Shown: in pieces, positions 7,172 to 29,106 of the stretch
Numbering within the stretch: position 1 is the stretch's first letter
Layout of the letters: the number at the start of each line of letters is the position of its first letter
Source: Chitinophagaceae bacterium UBA4411
Lineage (GTDB): Bacteria; Bacteroidota; Bacteroidia; Chitinophagales; Chitinophagaceae
Reading direction: 5' to 3'
Length of the DNA: 64,000 nucleotides
Assembly: GCA_002400415.1 (NCBI GenBank)
Contig: DGQP01000007.1
Coordinates: 77,373-141,372 of the forward strand
The notes under the pieces: generated by a model
What the model saw: only the letters and a program-made list of their open reading frames with translations
Databases searched by the model: none
What the model was told of the DNA's origin: nothing
Position numbers and translations under genes: made by a program

Positions 7172-10100
7172 ATGAGTTATAAACCGGTTAATAAAGTTCG
7201 GATTGTTACAGCAGCTTCTCTTTTTGACGGACACGATGCTGCCATTAATATCATGCGCCGCATTATGCAGAGTAAGGGTGCCGAGATCATCCATTTAGGT
7301 CATAACCGTTCTGTTAAAGAGATTGTGGAAACGGCGATTGAAGAAGATGTGCAGGGGATTGCCATCACATCTTACCAGGGTGGCCACGTGGAGTTTTTTA
7401 AATACATGAAGGACCTGCTGGACGAGAATGGCTGTGGCCATATCAGGATATTTGGTGGCGGTGGCGGCACCATCCTTCCCGGTGAAATCGAAGAATTACA
7501 TCAATATGGTATCAGCAGGATCTATTCCCCTGATGACGGAAGGCAAATGGGGCTGGAAGGAATGATTGAGGATGTGATCAGGCAATGCAGCCTCCCCAAC
7601 TCCTCCGCAGGAGGGGCTTCAGCAGTTCAATGGAATGGAAAGCTTCCATTGGATGAGGTAAAAGATGTAAGAAAAATAGCGAAGGCAATAAGTATTGCAG
7701 AAGAAGGAAGAGATTATTCTGACCAATTGAAGGAAATAAAAAGATTATCGGACTCCAAAGACCCCCTTGCGGGGGGTGGGGGGGCGCCAGTACTCGGTAT
7801 TACCGGTACCGGCGGAGCCGGGAAATCATCGGTAACAGACGAGATCGTGCGCCGTTTTCTTGTGAATTTCACTGATAAAACAATTGCTGTCATCTCTGTC
7901 GATCCTTCAAAGAAAAAAACAGGCGGTGCATTGCTGGGTGACCGGATACGGATGAATGCAATCTCCCACCCGAGGGCTTATATGCGCAGTCTTGCCACAA
8001 GGGATGATAATACCGCATTAAGCAGTGCCGTGCAGGAAGCGATTGATATTTGCAAAGCCGCCGCATTTGATTTTATTATTTTGGAAAGTGCAGGTGTGGG
8101 GCAAAGCGATGCTTCGATACTGGATTATTGTGATATAAGCATGTATGTGATGACACCAGAATACGGAGCAGCTTCGCAACTGGAGAAGATCAATATGCTG
8201 GACTATGCAGACCTGGTTTGTATCAATAAATTTGATAAGGCCGGTGCCCTGGATGCTTTAGCAGATGTACGTAAACAATACAAACGCAATCATAGTTTAT
8301 GGACAGCCAAAGATGAAGAACTGCCCATTATTGGAACGATGGCCAGTAAGTTCAACGATGATGGGGTCAATCATTTATTTGAATTGCTGCTGAAAAAAAT
8401 TGAAACCAAAACAAAAACTGTTTTTGGTGGCTACCAGTTTGCTGAAACAGTGAAGGTTTCACAAGCTATTATTCCTTCCGGTCGCACCCGCTACCTGAGT
8501 GAGATCAGTGAGAATAACCGGAACTATGACCAATTGGTAAAAGACCAGGCAGCCATAGCTTCTAAATTATACCAGCTACAAGGTGCATTAGGAGTTTTGC
8601 AAAATAAAGAGGCTAAAGCCCCTCTTGCGGAGGGGTTTGGGGAGGCCATACAGCAACAGATCAGTTTTTACCAGGACCAGTTGACGCCTGTAAGCCGTAA
8701 GCTGATCAGCAACTGGCCTGAAAAAGTAAAAGAATACCAGAAAGACTATTACGAATATACCGTAAGGGACAAAGTGATCCGTCAGGAGATGTTTACGAAG
8801 AGTTTATCGGGTACAAGAATTCCTAAAGTAGTATTGCCAAAATATAAAGACTGGGGTGACTTGTTGAAATGGCAGGCACAGGAAAACGTGCCGGGTCATT
8901 TCCCTTTTACAGCTGGCGTATTTCCTTTAAAAAGGGAGGGAGAGGATCCGACTAGGATGTTTGCGGGTGAAGGTGGTCCGGAAAGAACCAATAAACGGTT
9001 TCACTATGTATCCACCGATCAGCCTGCCAAAAGATTATCTACGGCTTTTGACAGTGTGACTCTATACGGGGAAGATCCGGGTCATCGTCCCGATATTTAT
9101 GGCAAGATCGGCAACAGCGGGGTTAGTATTGCCACGGTGGATGACGCCAAGAAATTATACAGCGGTTTTGATTTATGTGATCCGAAGACCTCTGTATCCA
9201 TGACTATCAACGGACCGGCTCCGATCATTCTTGCTTTCTTCATGAATGCGGCTATTGATCAGCAATGCGAAAAGAAAATCACCGAGCTGGGTTTGTGGGA
9301 TGAAGTAAAAAAAATCAGTACAGTTAAATACAAACATCTTCCGGCCCCTCAATATCATAACGCCTCTTTTCCCGCCGAACTGCCGGAAGGAAATAATGGA
9401 TTAGGTTTAAAATTATTAGGATTGAGTGGAGAAGAAGTACTACCTAAAGAAATATATGAACAATGCAGGCAAACAGCTTTGCAGCAGGTGAGGGGAACGG
9501 TGCAGGCTGATATTCTGAAAGAAGACCAGGCACAGAATACTTGTATCTTCTCCACCGAGTTTGCGCTGAAACTGATGGGCGATGTGCAGGAATATTTTAT
9601 CCGGCAAAAGGTCAGGAATTTTTACTCGGTTTCCATCAGTGGTTATCACATTGCAGAAGCCGGCGCTAATCCTATTACCCAACTGGCTTTTACACTGGCT
9701 AACGGTTTTACTTATGTTGAATATTATCTCAGCCGGGGGATGAATATTGATGATTTTGCCCCGAACCTTTCTTTCTTCTTTAGTAACGGGATGGATCCTG
9801 AATACAGTGTGATCGGGCGGGTGTCGAGACGTATCTGGGCAAAAGCAATGAAGTATAAATACAAGGCAAATAAACGCAGCCAGATGCTGAAATATCATAT
9901 TCAGACATCGGGCAGAAGTTTGCATGCACAGGAAATTGATTTCAATGATATAAGGACGACATTGCAGGCTTTATATGCGATTTATGATAATTGCAATTCT
10001 TTGCATACGAATGCGTATGATGAAGCCATTACAACTCCGACGGAAGAAAGTGTGCGAAGGGCGATGGCGATACAACTGATCATTAACCGGGAACTGGGTA

Positions 10101-10591
10101 CAGCCAATACCGAAAATTTTAGCCAGGGAAGTTTTGCTGTTGAAGAACTGACGGACCTGGTGGAAGAAGCCGTCCTTGCCGAATTTGACCGCATCACTGA
10201 AAGAGGAGGTGTGCTGGGCGCTATGGAACGAATGTACCAGCGGAATAAAATACAGGAAGAAAGCCTTTATTACGAACACCAGAAGCATACAGGTGAATTG
10301 CCATTGATTGGTGTGAATACATTCCTGAATAAAAAAGGAAGCCCTACTATTATCCCGGGAGAAGTAATCAGGAGTACTACCGAAGAAAAAGAACAGCAGA
10401 TCAGGAACCTGGAAGCATTTTGGAAGAGAAATGAACTAAAGAGTGAAAATGAATTACTGCGATTAAAAGAAGTGGCCGTCAATAATGGAAACCTCTTTGA
10501 GCAGCTGATGGAAACGGTGAAGTATTGCTCGCTGGGCCAGATCACTCATGCTTTATACGAGGTAGGGGGACAATACCGCCGTAATATGTAA
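7172..10591 (+). CDS. icmF: fused isobutyryl-CoA mutase IcmF (B12-binding domain + MeaB-like G-protein + methylmalonyl-CoA mutase-type catalytic domain)
   Basis: 1139 aa protein. N-terminal B12-binding module ([10 protein letters not shown]...IHLG). Central MeaB/ArgK P-loop GTPase ([12 protein letters not shown], ...NKFD). Large C-terminal mutase barrel. Confidence 0.8.
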
Positions 10592-22551: not shown

Positions 22552-23163
22552 ATGGAAACGATCATCAACACGATTCCCGGTTACCGGGTCTATGAGTATT
22601 TGCTGGTGCTGAGCCCGCATGAAGAATTGTGGAACCGTATCATGAAAGTGAAGGAGGATTTTTCTAACGAGTATAAATCGGATCATGCGAAATGGGGCAA
22701 GCCGCATATCACATTAGTCAATTACCTGCAATATCAAATGATGGAGGAACGGATTGTTAACCGGTTGCATACCGTGGCGATGGGCTTTCCCCCGTTCAAA
22801 GTGGAATTAAAAGACTTTGGCAGTTTTCCTTCGCATACTATTTATATCAATGTAACCAGTAAGCTGCCGGTACAGCAGCTGGTGAAAGAAATCCGCACTG
22901 ATGGCCAGCGGCTCATGAAACTCAATGATGATAATAAACCGCATTTTATCATGGAGCCGCACCTGGCCATTGCAAGAAAACTGAAACCCTGGCAATATGA
23001 AAAAGGATGGCTGGAATACAGTAATAAACATTTCACCGGCCGTTTCATTGCCGGCGCAATGACCTTATTAAAAAGACCGGCGGGTGAAATGAAATATCAT
23101 ATTGCGAAGCGGTTTGAATTTCAAAACCTGCCGGTTGTTACAAGACAAGGGCAATTATTTTAA
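22552..23163 (+). CDS. 2H phosphoesterase superfamily protein (LigT/2'-5' RNA ligase-like)
   Basis: Two H-x-[TSA]-x motifs (PHITLVNY and PHLAIARK) are spaced as in LigT-like cyclic phosphodiesterases. Confidence 0.45.
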   Translation: METIINTIPGYRVYEYLLVLSPHEELWNRIMKVKEDFSNEYKSDHAKWGKPHITLVNYLQYQMMEERIVNRLHTVAMGFPPFKVELKDFGSFPSHTIYINVTSKLPVQQLVKEIRTDGQRLMKLNDDNKPHFIMEPHLAIARKLKPWQYEKGWLEYSNKHFTGRFIAGAMTLLKRPAGEMKYHIAKRFEFQNLPVVTRQGQLF

Positions 23164-23173
23164 AATCAAAAAA

Positions 23174-23563
23174 ATGTATCAGCCTTTAACTGAAAGAGAA
23201 AATTGGCTTGCCGGTCAGATTGTTGATATTGCTGTTTGTATTGATAAGGTAATGGGGCCTGGTTTATTAGAAAGCATTTACGGAAAATGTTTTTGTTATG
23301 AGTTGATGAAAAGAGAAATCTGGTTTGAAAAACAGAAGATTGTCAGGTTGCAGTATGATCAATTAATTATTGATGAAGGCCTCCGTGTTGATATTCTAGT
23401 TGATAACCTGGTAGTAGTTGAGTTAAAGTCACAGGAGTATTATCATCCGGTATGGGAAGCGCAGCTGCTAAGCTATTTGAAGTTGAGTAATAAAAGACTT
23501 GGGTTTATTATCAATTTCAACGTACCGGTGATGAAAGAAGGAATAAAAAGGATGATAATGTAA
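23174..23563 (+). CDS. GxxExxY family protein (PD-(D/E)XK fold)
   Basis: Reads NLVVVELKSQEYYHPVWEAQLLSYLKLSNKRLGFIINF, characteristic of the GxxExxY family. Start placed at MYQPLTE (23174). The longer ORF from 23102 overlaps the upstream gene. Confidence 0.65.
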   Translation: MYQPLTERENWLAGQIVDIAVCIDKVMGPGLLESIYGKCFCYELMKREIWFEKQKIVRLQYDQLIIDEGLRVDILVDNLVVVELKSQEYYHPVWEAQLLSYLKLSNKRLGFIINFNVPVMKEGIKRMIM

Positions 23564-23566
23564 AAC

Positions 23567-23650
23567 ATATGAAACACAAAGACACGGGGACAGGGAGACA
23601 CAGGTAATGCTCTTGGTGTTTTGTGCCTTAGTGCCTTTGTGGCTCAAAAC
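23567..23650. repeat. imperfect inverted-repeat element (copy 1 of a family also at 28766-28890 and 35534-35670)
   Basis: The left arm atatgaaacacaaagacacggggacagggagacacagg is complementary to the right arm ctcttggtgttttgtgccttagtgcctttgtggctcaaaac. The Y-half is near-identical to sequences beside the tRNA array and upstream of rtcB. Confidence 0.5.
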
Positions 23651-23818
23651 AAGCGGATAGTATACAGAAAAGTAATAGTGAGATGGGTGAGTGAGACAGA
23701 AGGAGAATAAAGAGTAAGATTTTGTGCAGTATGATTATGAAGAGATAGCTCTTTGTTCTCCTTTTTTTATTGCCCGTACGGGATCAAGTAATTGAACAAT
23801 CAAAACCAACCATAGTGT

Positions 23819-24928
23819 ATGCCAGGGAAACTGAAGCAGGATCATTTTAAAGTGGAAGCGAAACAACCCGAAGAAGGGGCGCAATATTTAGCAGGCCGGG
23901 GAGCACAATTCAATACCAAAAACCGGTTTCAGAAAAATGAAACCACCCGGGAACATATAGAAGGTATTGATGACTGGGAGGAATCCAATGTGCCCACGAT
24001 TTATATGGAGCAGGAATCAAAAACGATCGTGAATAAAGTAGAGAGCAAGGATGTGGGTATGGGCTACAGCATGAACCCCTATGCCGGATGTGAGCATGGC
24101 TGCATTTATTGCTATGCCAGGAATGTGCATGAATACTGGGGCTACAGTGCCGGGCTTGATTTTGAACGCAAGATCATTGTAAAAAAGAATGCACCACAGT
24201 TGCTGCGTAAATTCCTGATGCATAAAAAATGGGATGCCACTCCCATTATGCTGAGTGGTAATACCGATTGCTACCAGCCAGCCGAACAGAAATACCGGCT
24301 CACAAGAGGATTATTGGAAGTATGCAATGAGTTCAACCAGCCGGTAGGTATCCTCACTAAAAATTCATGGATACTGAAGGACAAGGATGTACTGCAGGAA
24401 ATGGCAAAGAAAAAAATCGTCTCGGCAATGGTATCTATCACTTCATTTAATGAAGACCTGCGTCGGATCATGGAACCAAGAACCACCACGGCCAAACAAA
24501 AGCTGAAAGTGATCAATGAACTCAGCAGTGCCGGAGTCCGTATGGGAATTATGATGGGGCCGATGATACCGGGCCTGAATGAACATGAGATGCAGCGCAT
24601 CATGAAAGAAGCCCGGGATAATGGCGCTACGTTCACTGCTTATACTTTCATCCGGTTGAACGGAGCGATCAAATTCTTATTCCACGACTGGCTGTATAAA
24701 AATTTTCCGGACCGGGCTGATAAGGTCTGGCATTTGATCGAACAAAGCCATGATGGAAAAGTGAATGATACCCGCTGGGGAGTGCGGATGCGTGGCGAAG
24801 GAAATATTGCAGAACTGGTGGCCCAGCAGTATAAAAAATACGGCAAGCTCTATGGCATGAATGCTGAAGAATGGAGCCTGGATACGAGTATCTTCAGAAG
24901 GCCGGGGGAGCAGGGGAGGTTGTTTTGA
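23819..24928 (+). CDS. radical SAM protein, spore-photoproduct-lyase (SplB)-like
   Basis: YAGCEHGCIYCYA gives the CxxxCxxC radical SAM cluster motif. Architecture and length match SplB-like DNA repair radical SAM proteins. Confidence 0.65.
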   Translation: MPGKLKQDHFKVEAKQPEEGAQYLAGRGAQFNTKNRFQKNETTREHIEGIDDWEESNVPTIYMEQESKTIVNKVESKDVGMGYSMNPYAGCEHGCIYCYARNVHEYWGYSAGLDFERKIIVKKNAPQLLRKFLMHKKWDATPIMLSGNTDCYQPAEQKYRLTRGLLEVCNEFNQPVGILTKNSWILKDKDVLQEMAKKKIVSAMVSITSFNEDLRRIMEPRTTTAKQKLKVINELSSAGVRMGIMMGPMIPGLNEHEMQRIMKEARDNGATFTAYTFIRLNGAIKFLFHDWLYKNFPDRADKVWHLIEQSHDGKVNDTRWGVRMRGEGNIAELVAQQYKKYGKLYGMNAEEWSLDTSIFRRPGEQGRLF

Positions 24929-24976
24929 GGGTAAAAATGTTTACATTGTATCTTGTATATTTACAAAAAATAAGAT

Positions 24977-25900
24977 ATGCAAGTTGACCTAGTTAAAGGG
25001 TTAAATCTGAGGGTCGAGGGAGAAATTGGGAAATTTAATACTTTGCCAATAGAGTACCTTGTAAAGCTTGCAGAGAACTTACAAAAGCTATTACAAGATA
25101 TTGCCAAACACCAATTGGAAGTAGATGGTGCTATTGATTTGGACAATTTTAAAGTTGAGCTTGCTGGCTTTAAAATAGGAAGCGCTATTCCTGAATTTGT
25201 TTTTACCCCAAGAATGAAAGCCGTCACTAGTGGTGATGTAATTGAACAACGAAAATTTGTGAATAATAAATTTGACTCTTATTTGAAGGTAGCTAATAAG
25301 GGTGATTATTCAGAGATTAAAAAAATTATTCCTCAACCAACAACTCGCAATATTATTGTTGATGATTTGTATCATTTTGCTACTACGTTTGGTAACTCAC
25401 CTGTCACAGTTGTTGAAATCAAACGGGGTAAAATTGTCCCAATTTATAAAATAAGTAAATTTAAGACTGAAATTAAGGATAAGCTTTTAACTAAGATTAC
25501 TGAAAGTATCGAGACAAAAGAAGAATATGAGGCTGTAGCAAAAATTAAAGTCGTTCGAAAAGGCGGGAAAATTACAAAATCTACGAAAGATGTTTTTGAT
25601 ACCAGGCATGGTGAACCTGGCTACTCTTTTGACACAATTGTATTTGAAAAAAAAGTGTATATCCTTGCATTCCCACTAAGATGTAAGATTGAGAAAGAAG
25701 AGGACTACTATGTAATACAGTCTGAAATGATTGACATAGTAGGTACAGGTAAAACAATTGATGATGCCGAAAAGAGTTTCTCAGAAGAATTCCATTTTGT
25801 GTACAAGCGTTATAACCAGCTAACAGAAAAAAAATTAGGAGATAGGCCTAGAAGAATTAAGACAATATTGAATTCCTTAGTCCTAAAAGTTGAAGAGTAA
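24977..25900 (+). CDS. hypothetical protein with C-terminal HicB-like (UPF0150/RNase H-like) segment
   Basis: AT-rich ORF. The C-terminal YYVIQSEMIDIVGTGKTIDDAEKSFSEEF resembles HicB antitoxin N-domains (G.G.T.eEA). The remainder has no recognisable motif. Confidence 0.4.
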   Translation: MQVDLVKGLNLRVEGEIGKFNTLPIEYLVKLAENLQKLLQDIAKHQLEVDGAIDLDNFKVELAGFKIGSAIPEFVFTPRMKAVTSGDVIEQRKFVNNKFDSYLKVANKGDYSEIKKIIPQPTTRNIIVDDLYHFATTFGNSPVTVVEIKRGKIVPIYKISKFKTEIKDKLLTKITESIETKEEYEAVAKIKVVRKGGKITKSTKDVFDTRHGEPGYSFDTIVFEKKVYILAFPLRCKIEKEEDYYVIQSEMIDIVGTGKTIDDAEKSFSEEFHFVYKRYNQLTEKKLGDRPRRIKTILNSLVLKVEE

Positions 25901-26250
25901 TGCCAGTTTTAGATGCTAAAAAGACATACCAAAACCTTCTAAGTAAAGGCTTCAAAGCAACCAAAGGAGACCATAAATATTTGGAGTATTATTTTAATGG
26001 CAAATTAATTCTTCATACAAAGATTAGTCATGGAGAAAAAGAACTACAAGATTTTCACATTGGTATGATGAAACGGCAATGCAAACTTGAAAAAAAGGAG
26101 TTTCTTGATTTGGCGAATTGCCCATTATCAGCCGAAGACTATTTAAATATTTTAAAAGAAGCAGGAATAATAACTGAAAAAGATTTAGTAACACTACAGC
26201 CCAATCCATCTCAGAATATTCCTAAACAGAAAAAAAAGCAAAAAAAGTAA
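25900..26250 (+). CDS. hypothetical small protein, possible HicA/YcfA-like
   Basis: 116 aa protein whose stop/start overlaps the upstream ORF. LLSKGFKATKGDHKYLEYYFNGKLILHTKISHG weakly resembles the HicA mRNA interferase core (GF...GSH..F....G....P.H). Lys-rich C-terminal tail. Confidence 0.35.
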   Translation: MPVLDAKKTYQNLLSKGFKATKGDHKYLEYYFNGKLILHTKISHGEKELQDFHIGMMKRQCKLEKKEFLDLANCPLSAEDYLNILKEAGIITEKDLVTLQPNPSQNIPKQKKKQKK

Positions 26251-26360
26251 TTTATCTTTTTTCTGCAAAAGACCGTATAAGTACGTTAAATCAGTAGGAA
26301 TCAGAAAGGAAGTTTGAGATTTGAACTTTATTCTTATAGCGTTTATAGCTATCTAAAATT

Positions 26361-26771
26361 ATGCAGCAAACTCGTAAGTCATTCCTTTCCAAGCTTACTT
26401 TATTGAGTTTAACTTTTGTTGGCTTATCTTCATTCAAAAGGCGGCTAATAGTGAACGAAAACAAAACTATGTTTATTCACCATGTTTTTTTCCGGTTAAA
26501 GAACCCGGACAGTAGTGCTGACCGGGATCAATTAGTGCAAGGCTTAACTAAACTATCCAAAGTAAAGACCATCCGCCATTTTCATATCGGCAAACCGGCT
26601 GATACCAACCGTGAGGTGATTGAAAGAAGCTATGCTGTTTCTTGGCTACTGCAGTTTGATAATGATGCCGACCAGGCCAGTTATCAATCCGATCCTGTTC
26701 ACCTGCAATTTATTGAAGAGTGTTCTCACTTGTGGAGTAAAGTGATCGTGTATGATTCAGTCAATGTGTAA
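26361..26771 (+). CDS. Dabb (stress-responsive dimeric alpha/beta-barrel) family protein
   Basis: HHVFFRLKNPDS...VKTIRHFHIGKPADT...QFDNDADQASYQSDPVHLQFIE matches the Dabb domain pattern. Confidence 0.6.
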   Translation: MQQTRKSFLSKLTLLSLTFVGLSSFKRRLIVNENKTMFIHHVFFRLKNPDSSADRDQLVQGLTKLSKVKTIRHFHIGKPADTNREVIERSYAVSWLLQFDNDADQASYQSDPVHLQFIEECSHLWSKVIVYDSVNV

Positions 26772-27007
26772 CTGTTCCTTAGTCCATGCATTTTTAAACG
26801 CCGGAAAAATTAATTTTAAAATTTCTCTTTAAAAATTTGGCAACAACAAAAAATTAATTCAATCTTTGCATCGCAAAACAAAAACATGCAACGCATACAA
26901 CTACATACTGAATCAGCGAATAGCTTTAGTCCCAAGGGCGACTATGCTGTGGCGGGGCAAGTATTGCTGCATGGATAAGTTGAAAAAACGAGTTCGATGA
27001 AATACAG

Positions 27008-27036
27008 GCCCCGCAAGAGATTGCGGGGTTTTTTAT
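27008..27036 (+). terminator. rho-independent terminator
   Basis: ccccgcaa-gaga-ttgcgggg followed by ttttttatt. No ORF lies between the Dabb gene and this site. Confidence 0.6.
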
Positions 27037-27313
27037 TCCCGGGATCACGGGAGCCCGGCACAAAAAATAAAGTGTAGGCAATGTGTGTAATTAGTAATGA
27101 AATGAATCTATTGTAAACGAAAAATAAAAAATGCGCAAGGAATTACGACATAAACGATTTAGTATAACAATGAATGATCAACTATCATCATCCGGCTGCT
27201 ATTGGTATGTACAGGCTGACAGGAGTAGTATGCCCAGGGGTAATGAAAGTGATAATAAACAGGAACGACCGGATAATATCCATACGTAGGTACAGCAGTA
27301 CATTAACGAGAGG

Positions 27314-27347
27314 AGCCCGGTCGCAAACAACGACCGGGCTTTTTTGT
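27314..27347 (+). terminator. rho-independent terminator
   Basis: agcccggtcg-caaacaa-cgaccgggct followed by ttttttgtg. Confidence 0.6.
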
Positions 27348-27601
27348 GTCCCGGAGAAGAAAATAAAAAGGGAAGGTATGTGATGAAATTTTTACTGGTG
27401 GTACTGGCAGTTCATTTTGTGGCTGAGCTGGTTAGTGCAAAACGAAAAGGAAATAAAAGGAACGACACGGAAAGGAAGAACCAAACGGTTTTTCACCCGG
27501 CAGAGTTTCCGCTGCGATAAAAAAATTATGTGCAGAAGGAGGAAATAAGCAATCCCCGTGAGATGCAGCGGGGATGCTTTTCCAAACAGTTCTTTTAACC
27601 T

Positions 27602-27674
27602 ATAGGAGCATTCCGACTGGCAGGATACTTCACCTGGAATGAAGAGGCTGCAGGTTCGAATCCTGTCTCCTATA
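27602..27674 (+). tRNA. tRNA-like gene 1 (anticodon loop cctggaa; TGG = Pro?), degenerate D-arm, no encoded CCA
   Basis: 7-bp acceptor ataggag/ctcctat. Anticodon stem cttca/tgaag. T-arm gcagg-ttcgaat-cctgt. Position 33 is C and the D-arm does not fold canonically. Confidence 0.4.
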
Positions 27675-27683
27675 CAATATGAT

Positions 27684-27757
27684 GGGCTGCCATGTTCCAA
27701 GGCTGGCGAAAGACATTTGCAATGTTGTTGTGCAGGGTTCGATTCCCTGGCGGTCCA
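27684..27757 (+). tRNA. tRNA-Ala(TGC), no encoded CCA
   Basis: Acceptor gggctgc/gcggtcc has the G3:U70 alanine identity pair. Anticodon loop tttgcaa. T-arm caggg-ttcgatt-ccctg. D-arm is atypical. Confidence 0.55.
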
Positions 27758-27765
27758 CGTCAGTT

Positions 27766-27838
27766 GATCTGTTCGTCTAACAGGTGAGGACGCAAGATTT
27801 TCATTCTTGTAATACGGGTTCGACTCCCGTACAGATTA
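27766..27838 (+). tRNA. tRNA-Glu(TTC), no encoded CCA
   Basis: Acceptor gatctgt/acagatt. D-loop contains GG. Anticodon stem caaga/tcttg with loop ttttcat. T-arm acggg-ttcgact-cccgt. Confidence 0.6.
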
Positions 27839-27841
27839 CAT

Positions 27842-27913
27842 GGTTCGTTGGTGTAACGGCTAACATCACAGATTGTCGATCTGTTGCTATGGGTTCGATT
27901 CCCGTACGAACCG
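27842..27913 (+). tRNA. tRNA-Asp(GTC), no encoded CCA
   Basis: Acceptor ggttcgt/acgaacc. D-arm gtgt-aacggcta-acat. Anticodon stem acaga/tctgt with loop ttgtcga. T-arm atggg-ttcgatt-cccgt. Confidence 0.6.
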
Positions 27914-27919
27914 CATAAT

Positions 27920-28013
27920 TGCCAGGTAGTGTAATGGTAAACATATCACACTTTGACTGTGATGTTCTCAGCCTGCCTGCCGGCAAAGGCAGGTTCGAGT
28001 CTGAGCCTGGCGA
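27920..28013 (+). tRNA. tRNA-Gln(TTG) carrying a 22-nt palindromic insertion between T-arm positions 53 and 54
   Basis: Acceptor tgccagg/cctggcg, with U8 and A9. D-arm gtgt-aatggtaa-acat. Anticodon stem tcaca/tgtga with loop ctttgac. T-stem ctcag/ctgag, T-loop ttcgagt. The hairpin cctgcctgccggcaaaggcagg (27972-27993) is inserted between G53 and T54. The gene is 94 nt as a result. Confidence 0.5.
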
Positions 28014-28025
28014 CAACGAAAACAT

Positions 28026-28098
28026 GTTGGCTTTAGCTTAATTGGTAAAGCATCCGTCTGTGCAACGGAAGATCAGGGTTCGAACCCCGGAGTCAACC
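28026..28098 (+). tRNA. tRNA-His(GTG), lacks encoded G-1 and CCA
   Basis: Acceptor gttggct/agtcaac. D-stem gctt/aagc with a GG loop. Anticodon stem tccgt/acgga with loop ctgtgca. T-arm caggg-ttcgaac-cccgg. Confidence 0.5.
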
Positions 28099-28109
28099 AA
28101 CAACGAGAA

Positions 28110-28203
28110 TACGACCGGGTGTAAGGGTAACATATTCGTCTCCTTCTCTTTCTGAGAAGTAAATAGCAGGCGGGTGTATTCAGTTCGAATCTGAAGGTCG
28201 TAC
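28110..28203 (+). tRNA. tRNA-like gene 7 (94 nt, isotype unresolved; candidate loop ctttctg)
   Basis: Perfect 7-bp acceptor tacgacc/ggtcgta and T-arm ttcag-ttcgaat-ctgaa. The middle region folds only into a cttct/agaag hairpin and carries extra nucleotides (agcaggcgggtg) before the T-arm. Confidence 0.35.
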
Positions 28204-28260
28204 GAGAATGATGGCTTAACCTTTTTGCCGGTAGTGTCAAGCCTATCAGTCAATATTAAT

Positions 28261-28352
28261 TGGCTTGTAGCTCAACTGAGGGATCTATCCGGCTTTTAAC
28301 CGGAGGGTTGTGGCCTGCCTCCCGGTAGGCGGTTCGAATCTCGCCGGGCCAG
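28261..28352 (+). tRNA. tRNA-Lys(TTT) with about 18-nt hairpin insertion 5' of the T-loop (imperfect T-stem)
   Basis: Acceptor tggcttg/cgggcca. Anticodon stem tccgg/ccgga with loop cttttaa. The hairpin ctgcctcccggtaggcgg (28315-28332) sits immediately 5' of ttcgaat. T-stem pairing is weak. Confidence 0.4.
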
Positions 28353-28362
28353 CTTTTTGAAT

Positions 28363-28436
28363 GTCCTGCTGGCAGACATGGCTGTATGCGCCCGACTGCA
28401 AGTCGGGAGAAAGAAGTTCGAATCTTCTGCAGGACT
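28363..28436 (+). tRNA. tRNA-Cys(GCA), no encoded CCA
   Basis: Perfect acceptor gtcctgc/gcaggac. D-stem gcag/ctgt. Anticodon stem cccga/tcggg with loop ctgcaag. T-arm agaag-ttcgaat-cttct. Confidence 0.5.
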
Positions 28437-28440
28437 CAAT

Positions 28441-28532
28441 GGATGAAAAGCTCAAAGGCTGAGCAGCGGTTTGTTAAGCCGTTGGTTGAAGGCCTGCCGG
28501 CAGGCAGGCAGGTTCGATTCCTTCTTCATCCG
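28441..28532 (+). tRNA. tRNA-Asn(GTT) carrying a 20-nt palindromic insertion between T-arm positions 53 and 54
   Basis: Perfect acceptor ggatgaa/ttcatcc. D-arm gctc-aaaggct-gagc. Anticodon stem gcggt/gccgt with loop ttgttaa. T-stem gaagg/ccttc, T-loop ttcgatt. The insert cctgccggcaggcaggcagg (28493-28512) lies between G53 and T54. Confidence 0.55.
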
Positions 28533-28536
28533 CAAT

Positions 28537-28621
28537 GTGAGTGCGACGAAGCCGGAGAGTCGTGACGGTCTGTAACACCGTTGCTTTTATAGCTGAGTAA
28601 GTTCGATTCTTACCACTCACA
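28537..28621 (+). tRNA. tRNA-Tyr(GTA), type II with long variable arm, no encoded CCA
   Basis: Perfect acceptor gtgagtg/cactcac. D-stem acga/tcgt. Anticodon stem acggt/accgt with loop ctgtaac. 15-nt variable arm. T-arm gtaag-ttcgatt-cttac. Confidence 0.6.
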
Positions 28622-28626
28622 CTTAC

Positions 28627-28710
28627 GGAGAGAGTCCGGTTGGCCATGGATGCTGTCTTGAAAACAGACTGGGTGTAAAAGCCTCAAGAGTTCGAATCTC
28701 TTTCTCTCCG
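28627..28710 (+). tRNA. tRNA-Ser(TGA), type II with long variable arm, no encoded CCA
   Basis: Perfect acceptor ggagaga/tctctcc. Anticodon loop cttgaaa. 17-nt variable arm. T-arm aagag-ttcgaat-ctctt. Confidence 0.5.
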
Positions 28711-28765
28711 CAGAATGGATTTGAAACATTAAGACTTGGAGATATAAAGGAACAAAGTAGAAAAA

Positions 28766-28890
28766 CTTCGTGTCCCGGTGTCTTAGTGCCTCAGTGGTTC
28801 AAAAAAGCTGAGTAACGAACAGAACGATGAAGGGTGCGACGCAAGGAAGATGACCGGAGTTACCATAGCTGGTAACAAAATAATAATGGA
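28766..28890. repeat. repeat elements Y+X (copy 2) inside the tRNA array
   Basis: The Y-half cttcgtgtcccggtgtcttagtgcctcagtggttcaaaa is followed by the X-half gtgcgacgcaaggaagatgaccggagttaccatagctggtaacaaaata. Both recur at 35534-35670, and the Y-half recurs at 23611-23650. Confidence 0.5.
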
Positions 28891-28940
28891 GAGTCATGGT
28901 CGGGGTAACACCCGGATAAGTTCGATTCTTACACTCTCCG
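28888..28940 (+). tRNA. truncated tRNA-like element (acceptor + T-arm mini-helix, 53 nt)
   Basis: Acceptor ggagagt/actctcc and T-arm taag-ttcgatt-ctta are present. A single internal hairpin is flanked by these, with no room for D and anticodon arms. Confidence 0.3.
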
Positions 28941-29030
28941 CAGCAGGTTTGCAGGTAAGTGAATTCGATAACCTGCCTGCCGGCAGGCAGATGAGGAATA
29001 GCGATCAGTCAATACTTATCGCAAACCAAT

Positions 29031-29106
29031 GGTGCTTTGGCAGAATGGTTATATGCGCCGGAGTGAAATCCCGGAGATCGTGGTTCAATTCCACGGGGCA
29101 CCACCA
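29031..29106 (+). tRNA. tRNA-Phe(GAA), the only array member with encoded CCA
   Basis: Acceptor ggtgctt/gggcacc, then discriminator A, then CCA. Anticodon loop gtgaaat. T-arm cgtgg-ttcaatt-ccacg. Confidence 0.5.

What the first reader, a model, noticed from the sequence alone, without database searches (positions are those of the whole stretch)
27972..28512. Palindromic CCTGCC...GGCAGG hairpins inserted precisely between T-arm nucleotides 53 and 54 of tRNA-Gln, tRNA-Asn and probably tRNA-Lys
In tRNA-Gln (27972-27993, cctgcctgccggcaaaggcagg) and tRNA-Asn (28493-28512, cctgccggcaggcaggcagg) the T-stem 5' strand and the TTCGAnT loop are separated by a 20-22 nt perfect hairpin. Removing it restores a textbook 72-nt tRNA, with G53 followed by T54-T55-C56. 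tRNA-Lys has a related insert (28315-28332). Free-standing copies of the same palindrome occur at 28972-28990, 30866-30885 and 31391-31399, but nowhere else in the 64 kb. Interrupted T-loops are not a known feature of bacterial tRNAs. This could be a tiny site-specific mobile insertion, a target for an unknown endonuclease or splicing activity, or a regulatory gate. One possibility is that the insert must be excised and the tRNA re-ligated, perhaps by the nearby RtcB.
Basis: seen in the sequence. Interest (0 to 1): 0.8.

Follow-up and report, generated by a model that had tools for sequence, protein, structure and literature searches.

The report
Selfish hairpin scars in tRNA genes
The hairpins interrupting three tRNA genes here are recent, strain-specific copies of a 20-base palindrome found in many bacterial phyla, often next to a tiny nuclease gene that invades tRNA genes, so they look like scars of selfish DNA rather than a new kind of tRNA intron.

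Summary
tRNA-Gln, tRNA-Asn and tRNA-Lys each carry an 18-22 nt GC-rich palindrome at the junction of the T-stem 5' strand and the T-loop. Two more copies lie in neighbouring non-coding RNA genes.

These are not a conserved tRNA feature. More than 20 related loci have uninterrupted genes, and each window copy is a clean insertion with no target duplication. One other strain carries the identical 22-mer at the same junction of a different tRNA-like gene.

The palindrome CCTGCCTGCCGGCAGGCAGG ("P") is widespread. Both the genome scan (Bacteroidota, Patescibacteria, Omnitrophota, Planctomycetota and others) and the metagenome scan hit their 120-stretch limit, and 35 viral stretches matched. It is mostly intergenic. 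Within real genes it is read in frame as LPAGRQ, so there it stays in the RNA.

P is significantly linked to ~80-aa single-domain GIY-YIG nuclease genes. These sit in tRNA genes at stem/loop junctions, next to a partial tRNA duplicate and an intact copy. The closest known system is the Ssn nuclease/hairpin-repeat pairing described in 2025, but P does not match its repeat pattern.

The window copies are solo scars in an accessory tRNA array beside an RtcB repair cassette. Nothing supports RtcB-dependent splicing.

The parts
27602..29106 (+). Accessory tRNA array. ARAGORN finds 10 tRNAs. In addition there are unrecognised Tyr and Ser genes, a 97-nt tRNA-like gene, truncated Arg and Ser genes, and an 85-nt hairpin RNA.
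   Evidence: Array content varies between strains.
27972..27993 (+). P variant v1 (CCTGCCTGCCGGCAAAGGCAGG, 22 nt), inserted between G53 and T54 of tRNA-Gln(TTG), which spans 27920-28014.
   Evidence: It is a clean 22-nt insertion relative to L002-L005. The identical 22-mer occurs in L013 at the same junction of another tRNA-like gene. The fold sequesters the T loop.
28315..28332 (+). Degenerate P copy (CCTGCCTCCCGGTAGGCG, 18 nt) at the T-stem/T-loop junction of tRNA-Lys(TTT), which spans 28261-28353.
   Evidence: Alignment A3 shows an 18-nt insertion. It also shows two T-stem pairs weakened to G.U and a D-loop deletion relative to four relatives, consistent with an older copy in a decaying gene.
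28493..28512 (+). P variant v2 (CCTGCCGGCAGGCAGGCAGG, 20 nt, with an unequal number of CCTG/CAGG units) at the T-stem/T-loop junction of tRNA-Asn(GTT), which spans 28441-28533.
   Evidence: It is a clean 20-nt insertion relative to four relatives, with AGG ambiguity.
28972..28991 (+). P variant v3 (CCTGCCTGCCGGCAGGCAGA), inserted in the apical region of a conserved ~85-nt hairpin RNA (28947-29030) that lies between tRNA-Ser and tRNA-Phe.
   Evidence: It is a clean 20-nt insertion relative to L003.
30866..30885 (+). P variant v4 (CCTGCCTACCGGCAGGCAGG), inserted about 60 nt upstream of the YrlA-like Y RNA.
   Evidence: It is a clean 20-nt insertion relative to five relatives. The same variant recurs in unrelated metagenome contigs.
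31392..31402 (+). Half-site look-alike (CCGGCAGGCAG). It is native sequence, not an insertion.
   Evidence: The sequence is conserved in relatives, apart from one extra base here.
28220..28234 (+). Possible decayed P remnant (CCTTTTTGCCGGTAG) at the breakpoint where tRNA-Arg is truncated.
   Evidence: Seen by eye against L003 and the reverse complement of v1. This is weak and not tested.

Best explanation
The inserts are solo copies of a ~20-nt GC-rich palindrome, here called P. Its consensus is CCTGCCTGCCGGCAGGCAGG: a conserved 7-bp stem CCTGCCT/AGGCAGG with a variable apex. P is a DNA-level selfish repeat.

In many bacteria P is the hairpin partner of a very small mobile cassette of about 340 bp. 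The cassette encodes a single-domain GIY-YIG nuclease of 77-95 aa and sits in tRNA genes at stem/loop junctions: T stem|T loop (53|54), anticodon stem|loop (31|32), or the D loop/D stem. A duplicate of the displaced part of the tRNA lies alongside it. One intact tRNA therefore survives, and a partial copy is left with P exactly at the junction.

Inferred steps:
- A tRNA carrying only P arises when repair or recombination uses the repeat next to P. This could be short-tract homing, or deletion between the duplicated tRNA segments.
- In this strain that happened several times in an accessory tRNA array, and in two neighbouring structured RNA genes, beside an RtcB repair cassette.
- The hairpin buries the T loop, so the interrupted tRNAs are most likely inactive. 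tRNA-Lys is already decaying.
- RtcB is a neighbour of the array, not a partner of the hairpin.
For: - **Polymorphism.** Relatives whose adjacent DUF458 protein is 88-99% identical have 72-76-nt Gln, Lys and Asn genes and no P.
- **Clean insertions without target duplication**.
- **Independent occurrence.** The identical 22-mer sits at ttcag^ttcgaat of another tRNA-like gene in an independent 2.1-Mb contig.
- **Wide spread.** Nine hits are in cultured Bacteroidota isolates. There are 35 viral stretches.
- **T-arm context.** In the metagenome scan, 19 of 120 P+TTCGA sites have a perfect T-arm context, against 2.6% expected. Only 2 of the 19 are complete tRNAs after excision.
- **Retention in mRNA.** P is read in frame inside FtsK and an RmlB-like gene, with one Pfam domain spanning it, and removing it breaks the ORFs.
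- **Link to GIY-YIG.** 12 of 17 small GIY-YIG ORFs in P-bearing loci lie within 160 nt of P, against 2.3 expected and 0 of 20,000 permutations.
- **Reverse test.** Three GIY-YIG clusters were chosen without regard to P. Every locus long enough to show the flanks had the ORF next to a tRNA-Leu gene, with a P-like hairpin at 53|54 or 31|32 of a partial tRNA copy. The D-arm type is shown.
- **Precedent.** Ssn family GIY-YIG ssDNA nucleases are flanked by their own hairpin repeats (PMC11893778).
- **Predicted fold.** The P hairpin is -11 to -14 kcal/mol and the T loop is sequestered.
Against: - No GIY-YIG ORF is present in the 64-kb window or in the fetched loci of close relatives. The link to the cassette therefore rests on sequence identity of P and on the identical junction, not on a local cassette.
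- Most P copies are solo and lie in varied non-tRNA contexts with no common target motif. P may therefore also move on its own by an unknown route.
- The five window copies are five different variants, which is not what simple recent copying from one master would give.
- Why a 20-mer stays identical across phyla is not explained.
- No RNA data exist, so processing of the interrupted tRNAs cannot be excluded.
Confidence: 0.7

Rival explanations
1. The hairpins are true intervening sequences. An endonuclease cuts at both feet of the hairpin in the pre-tRNA and RtcB rejoins the halves, so the array tRNAs are activated only when the repair system is on.
For: RtcB, LigT, two RlaP genes and a DUF458 RNase H-like gene flank the array. 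After the insert is removed, the T stem and acceptor stem would hold the two halves together. The inserts are precise.
Against: - The inserts are absent from more than 20 orthologous arrays.
- There is no BHB motif.
- The Lys copy and its host gene are decaying.
- P is retained in frame in mRNAs elsewhere.
- 17 of 19 T-loop copies elsewhere lie in tRNA fragments.
- No gene family, RtcB included, recurs in more than 5 of the 120 genome-scan P loci.
Confidence: 0.05
2. P is a minimal REP/PATE-type hairpin element. It is moved as single-stranded DNA by a Y1 (HUH) transposase of the RAYT or IS200/IS605 TnpA type, and its association with GIY-YIG genes is secondary.
For: - There is no target duplication.
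- The stem is conserved and the loop varies.
- Insertions fall at the edge of hairpin loops, where DNA stays single-stranded.
- Four of six local events follow TCGAA on the minus strand.
Against: - No transposase was found among the 35 window ORFs scanned.
- No gene family other than GIY-YIG recurs next to P.
- P lacks the conserved 5' GTAG of REPs.
- There is no common target word across sites.
Confidence: 0.12
3. The palindromes are sequencing or assembly artefacts.
For: The window comes from a short-read metagenome assembly. The same 20-mer appearing in very distant taxa looks suspicious.
Against: - P occurs in nine isolate genomes, in long-read and curated complete genomes, and in independent assemblers and samples.
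- Degenerate copies, nested copies and lineage-specific variants exist.
- In-frame copies occur in conserved genes.
- P has a consistent position relative to GIY-YIG genes.
Confidence: 0.01
4. The hairpins were selected in this strain for a host function. Examples would be stabilising or terminating transcripts of the array, or turning array tRNAs into decoys for tRNA-cleaving toxins.
For: Five copies lie within 3 kb and none elsewhere in the 64 kb. All are on the transcribed strand of RNA genes. Long tRNA arrays have been proposed to act as decoys or spare tRNAs (PMC8421152).
Against: Only 2 of about 25 related loci carry any copy, and at different sites. The copies are different variants. 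tRNA-Lys shows decay rather than conservation.
Confidence: 0.07

Closest known systems
Ssn nucleases and their NTS/SRM hairpin repeats (Chenal et al. 2025, Nat Commun 16:2388; PMC11893778)
   Same: - The nuclease is a single-domain GIY-YIG protein of under 100 aa.
- Its gene is flanked on one or both sides by a 20-50-nt hairpin-forming repeat.
- Many solo copies of the repeat are scattered in the genome.
- The repeat-gene-repeat layout resembles an insertion sequence.
- The loop of the hairpin is free to vary.
   Different: - P does not fit the published SRM pattern (HGTCWY...).
- The cassettes found here sit inside tRNA genes next to a partial tRNA duplicate, and that paper's main text does not mention tRNA.
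- The hosts are mainly Bacteroidota and Patescibacteria.
- Membership of the cd10448 clade and ssDNA cleavage could not be tested.
Free-standing GIY-YIG homing endonucleases in phage tRNA clusters (T4 SegB; PMC2330249)
   Same: A GIY-YIG nuclease gene lies among tRNA genes and cuts tRNA-gene DNA, which drives its own inheritance by repair.
   Different: Seg proteins are more than 200 aa and have a DNA-binding domain. They have no terminal palindrome and no partial duplication of the target tRNA. Homing has not been shown for the cassettes described here.
REP/RAYT and IS200/IS605-derived palindromic elements (PMC8266576)
   Same: These are short palindromic repeats that insert without target duplication and are recognised as hairpins on single-stranded DNA.
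   Different: They have different sequence hallmarks (a 5' GTAG), are species-specific, and are present in high copy number. They are associated with a Y1 transposase, which was not seen here.
Rickettsia palindromic elements and mitochondrial GC clusters / hairpin elements (PMC4478555, PMC2800124)
   Same: These are selfish palindromes that land in RNA genes and, in frame, in protein genes, and that survive where tolerated.
   Different: They are larger (30-150 bp), restricted to one lineage or organelle, and have no linked nuclease gene.
Archaeal non-canonical tRNA introns (BHB, including T-loop positions)
   Same: A short insert interrupts the T arm of a tRNA gene, and RtcB is the ligase in that pathway.
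   Different: Those introns are conserved and carry a bulge-helix-bulge motif cut by EndA. Here there is no BHB motif, no conservation, and no evidence of splicing.

Membership tests
Protein-spliced (BHB) tRNA intron | Bulge-helix-bulge motif at both exon-intron junctions | tested here: not met
   The folds give a continuous hairpin that also pairs with T-loop bases. There are no 3-nt bulges separated by 4 bp.
Protein-spliced (BHB) tRNA intron | The intron is a stable feature of the gene across related genomes | tested here: not met
   Orthologous Gln, Asn and Lys genes are uninterrupted in more than 20 related loci.
Protein-spliced (BHB) tRNA intron | A splicing endonuclease is encoded by the genome | tested here: inconclusive
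   None was found among the 35 window ORFs scanned against Pfam. The rest of the genome was not available.
Self-splicing group I/II intron | A ribozyme core of hundreds of nucleotides | tested here: not met
   The inserts are 18-22 nt. Rfam gives no intron match.
Ssn nuclease / hairpin-repeat system | A single-domain GIY-YIG protein of about 80-100 aa | tested here: met
   In related P-bearing loci the ORFs are 77-99 aa and carry only PF01541. None is present in the window itself.
Ssn nuclease / hairpin-repeat system | The gene is flanked by a 20-50-nt hairpin-forming repeat on one or both sides | tested here: met
   12 of 17 ORFs lie within 160 nt of P, with 0 of 20,000 permutations reaching that count. 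P lies on both sides in L220 and L300. All loci of the three independently chosen clusters that were long enough to show the flanks have a P-like hairpin.
Ssn nuclease / hairpin-repeat system | The repeat matches the SRM pattern HGTCWYN(0-2)YYVSBRHN(0-5)WNVSBRGN(0-2)RNCYNB | tested here: not met
   P has no GTCWY head. Only 1 of 268 P sites lies inside a hairpin that fits the pattern.
Ssn nuclease / hairpin-repeat system | The protein belongs to the cd10448 clade and cuts only ssDNA next to its hairpin | not testable with these tools
   No CDD library and no SsnA sequence were available. The nearest solved structures are UPF0213 proteins, SLX1 and the I-TevI catalytic domain.
REP / RAYT | A conserved 5' GTAG tetranucleotide and a linked Y1 transposase gene | tested here: not met
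   There is no GTAG next to P. No transposase was found in the window ORFs scanned. No shared neighbouring gene family other than GIY-YIG was found.
DDE-type MITE | Terminal inverted repeats plus a fixed-length target-site duplication | tested here: not met
   Comparison of empty and filled sites shows 0-3 nt of ambiguity only. Of the genome-scan sites, 92 of 96 have direct repeats of 2 nt or less at the flanks.
Seg-type free-standing homing endonuclease | A GIY-YIG catalytic domain plus a separate DNA-binding domain (about 200+ aa) | tested here: not met
   The proteins are 77-99 aa and contain the catalytic domain only.
Long accessory tRNA array (L-array) linked to RNA repair genes | A dense array of 10 or more tRNA genes, variable between strains, next to rtcB | tested here: met
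   At least 12 tRNA genes lie within 1.5 kb. Array content differs between strains. RtcB lies 6.6 kb downstream in a conserved cassette. The concept comes from PMC8421152.

The most novel reading that the evidence does not exclude
P together with its ~80-aa GIY-YIG nuclease could be an undescribed class of minimal mobile element of about 340 bp. It would home into stem/loop junctions of tRNA genes, rebuild an intact tRNA from a carried tRNA segment, and shed 20-nt palindromic scars into tRNAs, other structured RNA genes, intergenic hairpins and, in frame, proteins across many bacterial phyla and phages. Such an element could be a source of tRNA pseudogenes and of tRNA-array turnover.
Probability: 0.45. 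Interest if true: 0.8.

Novelty: new variant of a known kind. Interest (0 to 1): 0.6.

Why it matters
Three practical consequences follow if this holds.

1. Short palindromic interruptions that make tRNA finders report over-long or missing tRNAs in Bacteroidota and candidate-phyla genomes would have a simple explanation and should be annotated as scars, not introns.
2. The newly described small GIY-YIG (Ssn-like) nucleases would gain a concrete, testable life-style: invasion of tRNA genes at hairpin junctions.
3. A single 20-mer could serve as a marker to trace this element through metagenomes.

It also removes an attractive but unsupported case for RtcB-dependent tRNA splicing in bacteria.

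Tried and rejected
- **Hairpin targeting in general.** A crude test for complementary flanks was not significant: 28% of sites against 24% of controls had stems of at least 6 bp. I claim stem/loop junctions only for the tRNA and cassette cases.
- **Common target word.** None was found. TTCG is not enriched in the unbiased set.
- **Target duplication.** It is absent in most sites. A minority have 7-bp direct repeats, mostly inside heptamer tandem arrays. This is unexplained.
- **Shared neighbouring gene, by all-against-all clustering.** The largest cluster covered 5 loci. The GIY-YIG link appeared only later, after a chance observation in an hsdS gene.
- **PDDEXK_3 nuclease gene.** It is present only in the two P-bearing strains but is not enriched near P elsewhere: 1 hit in 1.85 Mb.
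- **BLAST of P against cultured phages and plasmids.** There was no perfect copy. The low-complexity filter may hide some.
- **Rfam on recurrent P contexts.** Only ordinary tRNAs were found.
- **Published SRM pattern around P.** 1 of 268 sites matched.
- **Literature search for the 20-mer string.** Nothing relevant was found.
- **tRNA-Gly(acc) at 7769-7864.** It lies in a GC-rich stretch inside a long ORF and is probably a false positive.
- **T-loop pattern scan of viral contigs.** Only 2 hits were found.
Full report
**1. What is in the window**

The region 27602-29106 is a dense tRNA array on the + strand. Rfam confirms eight of the tRNAs. It also gives weak class-II hits for an unrecognised tRNA-Tyr (28537-28620) and tRNA-Ser (28626-28710).

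The array sits in a conserved RNA-repair neighbourhood, in this order:
- LigT
- a PD-(D/E)XK nuclease
- a radical SAM protein
- the array
- a DUF458/YkuK RNase H-like protein
- an AAA ATPase
- about 600 nt of non-coding DNA with a sub-threshold YrlA (Y RNA-like) match
- an SPFH protein
- two RlaP nucleotidyltransferases
- RtcB

The surrounding genes (sulfatase, glycoside hydrolase, polysaccharide export) are chromosomal and look like Bacteroidota. The window is part of a 167-kb wastewater metagenome contig, and the nearest named relatives are Chitinophagaceae.

**2.

CCTGCC-N(0-12)-GGCAGG occurs at four places, against 0.04 matches expected. All lie between 27972 and 30885, and a 3-mismatch search finds nothing else in 64 kb.

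tRNA-Gln, tRNA-Lys and tRNA-Asn are 95, 93 and 93 nt long. The extra 22, 18 and 20 nt sit between the 5' strand of the T stem and the TTCGA of the T loop.

Infernal puts the Gln insert in the T loop. It can shift the Asn insert into the variable region by using a mismatched alternative T stem.

**3. The inserts are recent and strain-specific**

I fetched about 30 contigs that encode the neighbouring DUF458 protein at 88-99% identity. The same cassette is present, but tRNA-Gln, tRNA-Lys and tRNA-Asn are 72-76 nt long and the palindrome is absent.

Alignments show clean insertions with otherwise unchanged flanks:

| Site | Filled-site sequence |
|---|---|
| Gln | ctcag[CCTGCCTGCCGGCAAAGGCAGG]ttcgag |
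| Asn | gaagg[CCTGCCGGCAGGCAGGCAGG]ttcgat |
| 28972 | cgata[ACCTGCCTGCCGGCAGGCAG]atgagg, inside a conserved hairpin RNA |
| 30866 | aagaa[GCCTGCCTACCGGCAGGCAG]gcatag, upstream of the Y RNA-like gene |

There is no target duplication beyond 1-3 ambiguous bases.

The supposed copy at 31392 is native sequence.

tRNA-Lys carries an 18-nt degenerate copy. Its T stem has two pairs weakened to G.U, and its D loop has a deletion relative to four relatives. This looks like an older insertion in a decaying gene.

One independent assembly, a 2.1-Mb JGI contig (L013), has intact Gln, Lys and Asn genes. It carries the identical 22-mer at ttcag^ttcgaat of a different tRNA-like gene, the homologue of window 28104-28200. 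The element is therefore real, mobile within this population, and drawn to the same junction.

**4. The palindrome is a widespread family**

Scan results:
My estimate of the chance expectation is about 13.
- 94 of the hits with full 40-nt flanks are the perfect 20-mer CCTGCCTGCCGGCAGGCAGG ("P"), for which about 0.5 would be expected.
- IMG/VR holds 35 stretches with the perfect 20-mer, and some contigs carry several copies.

Hosts include Bacteroidota (among them nine cultured isolates), many Patescibacteria, Omnitrophota, Planctomycetota, uncultured Gammaproteobacteria, Thermodesulfovibrionales, Ignavibacteria and Chloroflexi.

Variants recur in unrelated contigs. Their differences are concentrated at the apex, while the stem CCTGCCT/AGGCAGG is kept. 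The window's own AA and TACC variants are among them. Nested copies exist, with one P inside the apex of another.

Cultured-phage and plasmid collections gave no perfect copy. The 20-mer string was not found in the paper library.

**5. Where P sits**

About nine in ten genome copies lie outside long ORFs. There is no common target word and no general target duplication.

Several copies lie inside real genes and are translated in frame as LPAGRQ:
- One lies in an FtsK gene, where the FtsK_SpoIIIE domain spans it.
- A nested 42-nt copy lies in an RmlB-like dehydratase.
- Two lie in membrane glycosyltransferase-like genes.

Deleting the 20 nt breaks these reading frames. In those hosts P is therefore retained in the mRNA, which argues against a general RNA-level excision mechanism.

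Of 120 such sites, 19 have a perfect 5-bp T stem around a 7-nt loop, against 2.6% expected by permutation. Only 2 of the 19 are complete tRNAs once P is removed. The rest are 3' tRNA fragments lying beside an intact copy.

Other copies interrupt the D arm or the variable loop. The 53/54 junction is therefore recurrent but not the only site.

**6. The partner gene**

While checking an in-frame case, I noticed a GIY-YIG domain 35 nt from P. A profile search of all 277 P-bearing loci found 17 small GIY-YIG ORFs. Twelve lie within 160 nt of P, against 2.3 expected, and none of 20,000 permutations reached that count.

In a curated complete WWE3 genome and in a viral contig the layout is: tRNA(1-21 or 1-23)-P-tRNA(next ~10 nt)-[GIY-YIG ORF]-complete tRNA.

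As a reverse test I took three clusters of this protein family without regard to P. The family has at least 7,568 clusters of 77-90-aa proteins, named mainly from Bacteroidota and Patescibacteria. Every locus long enough to show the flanks had the ORF abutting a tRNA-Leu gene, in one of two arrangements:
- intact tRNA, 14 nt, ORF, spacer, variable arm plus T-stem 5' strand, P-like hairpin, then TTCGAATC through to the 3' end
- 5' tRNA fragment ending in the anticodon-stem 5' strand, nested P, CTCAAAA..., ORF, then intact tRNA-Leu(CAA)

Units of about 340 nt can be repeated in tandem (L300, L317, L320, L324). No such ORF is present in the window or in the loci of its close relatives.

**7. How it probably works**

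Shown:
- P marks the junction of a GIY-YIG cassette inserted at stem/loop junctions of tRNA genes.
- The cassette is accompanied by a duplicate of part of the tRNA, so that one intact gene remains.

Inferred:
- The nuclease nicks or cuts DNA at hairpin junctions. Its nearest solved relatives include the structure-specific nuclease SLX1.
- The Ssn family of single-domain GIY-YIG enzymes binds its own hairpin repeat as ssDNA and cuts a few bases upstream (PMC11893778).
- Because the donor carries two copies of the tRNA segment, repair or later recombination can use the copy next to P. This gives tRNA-P-tRNA, a solo scar exactly like those in the window. Using the other pair of repeats restores the gene.
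- A tRNA array offers many near-identical T arms. This would explain five events in 3 kb and none in the other 60 kb.

The RNA folds show a -11 to -14 kcal/mol hairpin that also pairs with T-loop bases. The interrupted tRNAs are therefore probably dead unless processed. Array tRNAs are dispensable, since their content varies between strains.

**8. Comparison with known systems**

The closest known system is the Ssn nuclease/NTS-SRM repeat pairing (2025). The two share a tiny GIY-YIG protein, flanking hairpin repeats, many solo repeats and an IS-like layout.

Three things differ:
- P does not fit the published SRM pattern.
- The cassettes lie in tRNA genes next to a partial duplicate of the target.
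- The main hosts are different.

T4 SegB is a functional precedent for a GIY-YIG nuclease acting on tRNA genes, but it is a larger, two-domain protein. REP/RAYT elements, IS200/IS605-derived elements, Rickettsia palindromic elements and mitochondrial GC clusters are analogues, not relatives. Archaeal BHB introns share only the position.

**9. Verdict**

The 'mobile insertion' reading is supported, and the 'RtcB-spliced intron' reading is not. The thing itself is a new variant of a recently recognised kind.

Open points:
- whether P can move without the cassette
- why the 20-mer is so uniform across phyla
- whether any interrupted tRNA is rescued at the RNA level

Noticed in passing
window 30792-31427 (YrlA-like match at 30945-31056): The ~600-nt non-coding stretch between the AAA and SPFH genes is conserved in all relatives. 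It contains a sub-threshold YrlA (Y RNA-like) match of 36.9 bits against a gathering score of 69, with T-arm and D-arm mimicry. No Ro/Rsr gene was seen in the window.
   Followed up: partly
window 22552-37144, and L001-L014: A conserved cassette runs: tRNA array - DUF458/YkuK - AAA - ncRNA - SPFH - (RlaP x2, DinB or DUF5677, variable) - RtcB. LigT and a radical SAM gene often lie upstream. This is an RNA-repair island with variable inserts.
   Followed up: partly
window 28104-28200: This is a 97-nt tRNA-like gene with acceptor and T arms intact and a long extra segment in place of a normal anticodon arm. It is nearly identical in all relatives and is missed by ARAGORN and Rfam. In L013 it is the gene that carries the 22-mer.
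   Followed up: no
window 28947-29030: A conserved ~85-nt hairpin RNA lies between tRNA-Ser and tRNA-Phe (z-score -4.2). It belongs to no known family.
   Followed up: no
window 28204-28260 and 28887-28940: The array is eroding. Relative to L003, tRNA-Arg(ACG) is truncated and tRNA-Met is lost. tRNA-Ser(GCT) has a 32-nt internal deletion. A tRNA-Cys not seen in relatives is present.
   Followed up: partly
window 23102-23563: A PDDEXK_3 (GxxExxY-type) nuclease gene lies between LigT and the radical SAM gene only in the two P-bearing strains (the window and L013). It is not enriched near P elsewhere.
   Followed up: yes
L026, L033, L193, L155, L250, L122: Other short GC-rich palindromes recur near P or in the same hairpin loops: CCGCCAGCTGGCGG, TCCGCCGCGGCGGA and GTCCGCCTGAGGCGGAC. 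One tRNA T loop (L193) carries both P and CCGCCAGCTGGCGG. These may be hairpin partners of other small nucleases.
   Followed up: no
L087 3780-4330: A type I restriction specificity (HsdS) gene has a GIY-YIG domain inserted in frame between its two target-recognition halves, with P 35 nt upstream of the domain.
   Followed up: partly
L135, L143, L156, L158, L118, L115 and others: Many P copies sit inside arrays of 7-nt tandem repeats. A minority are flanked by exact 7-bp direct repeats: 3% of genome sites and 7% of viral sites, against about 0.2% of controls. This is unexplained.
   Followed up: partly
L293 (reverse strand, 7338 in reverse-complement coordinates): A tRNA remnant has its D loop joined directly to its T loop through a single P. 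This is what recombination between a D-loop copy and a T-loop copy would produce, deleting the anticodon arm.
   Followed up: no
window 7769-7864: ARAGORN's 96-nt tRNA-Gly(ACC) lies in a GC-rich stretch inside the long ORF 7172-10591 and is not supported by Rfam. It is probably a false positive.
   Followed up: partly
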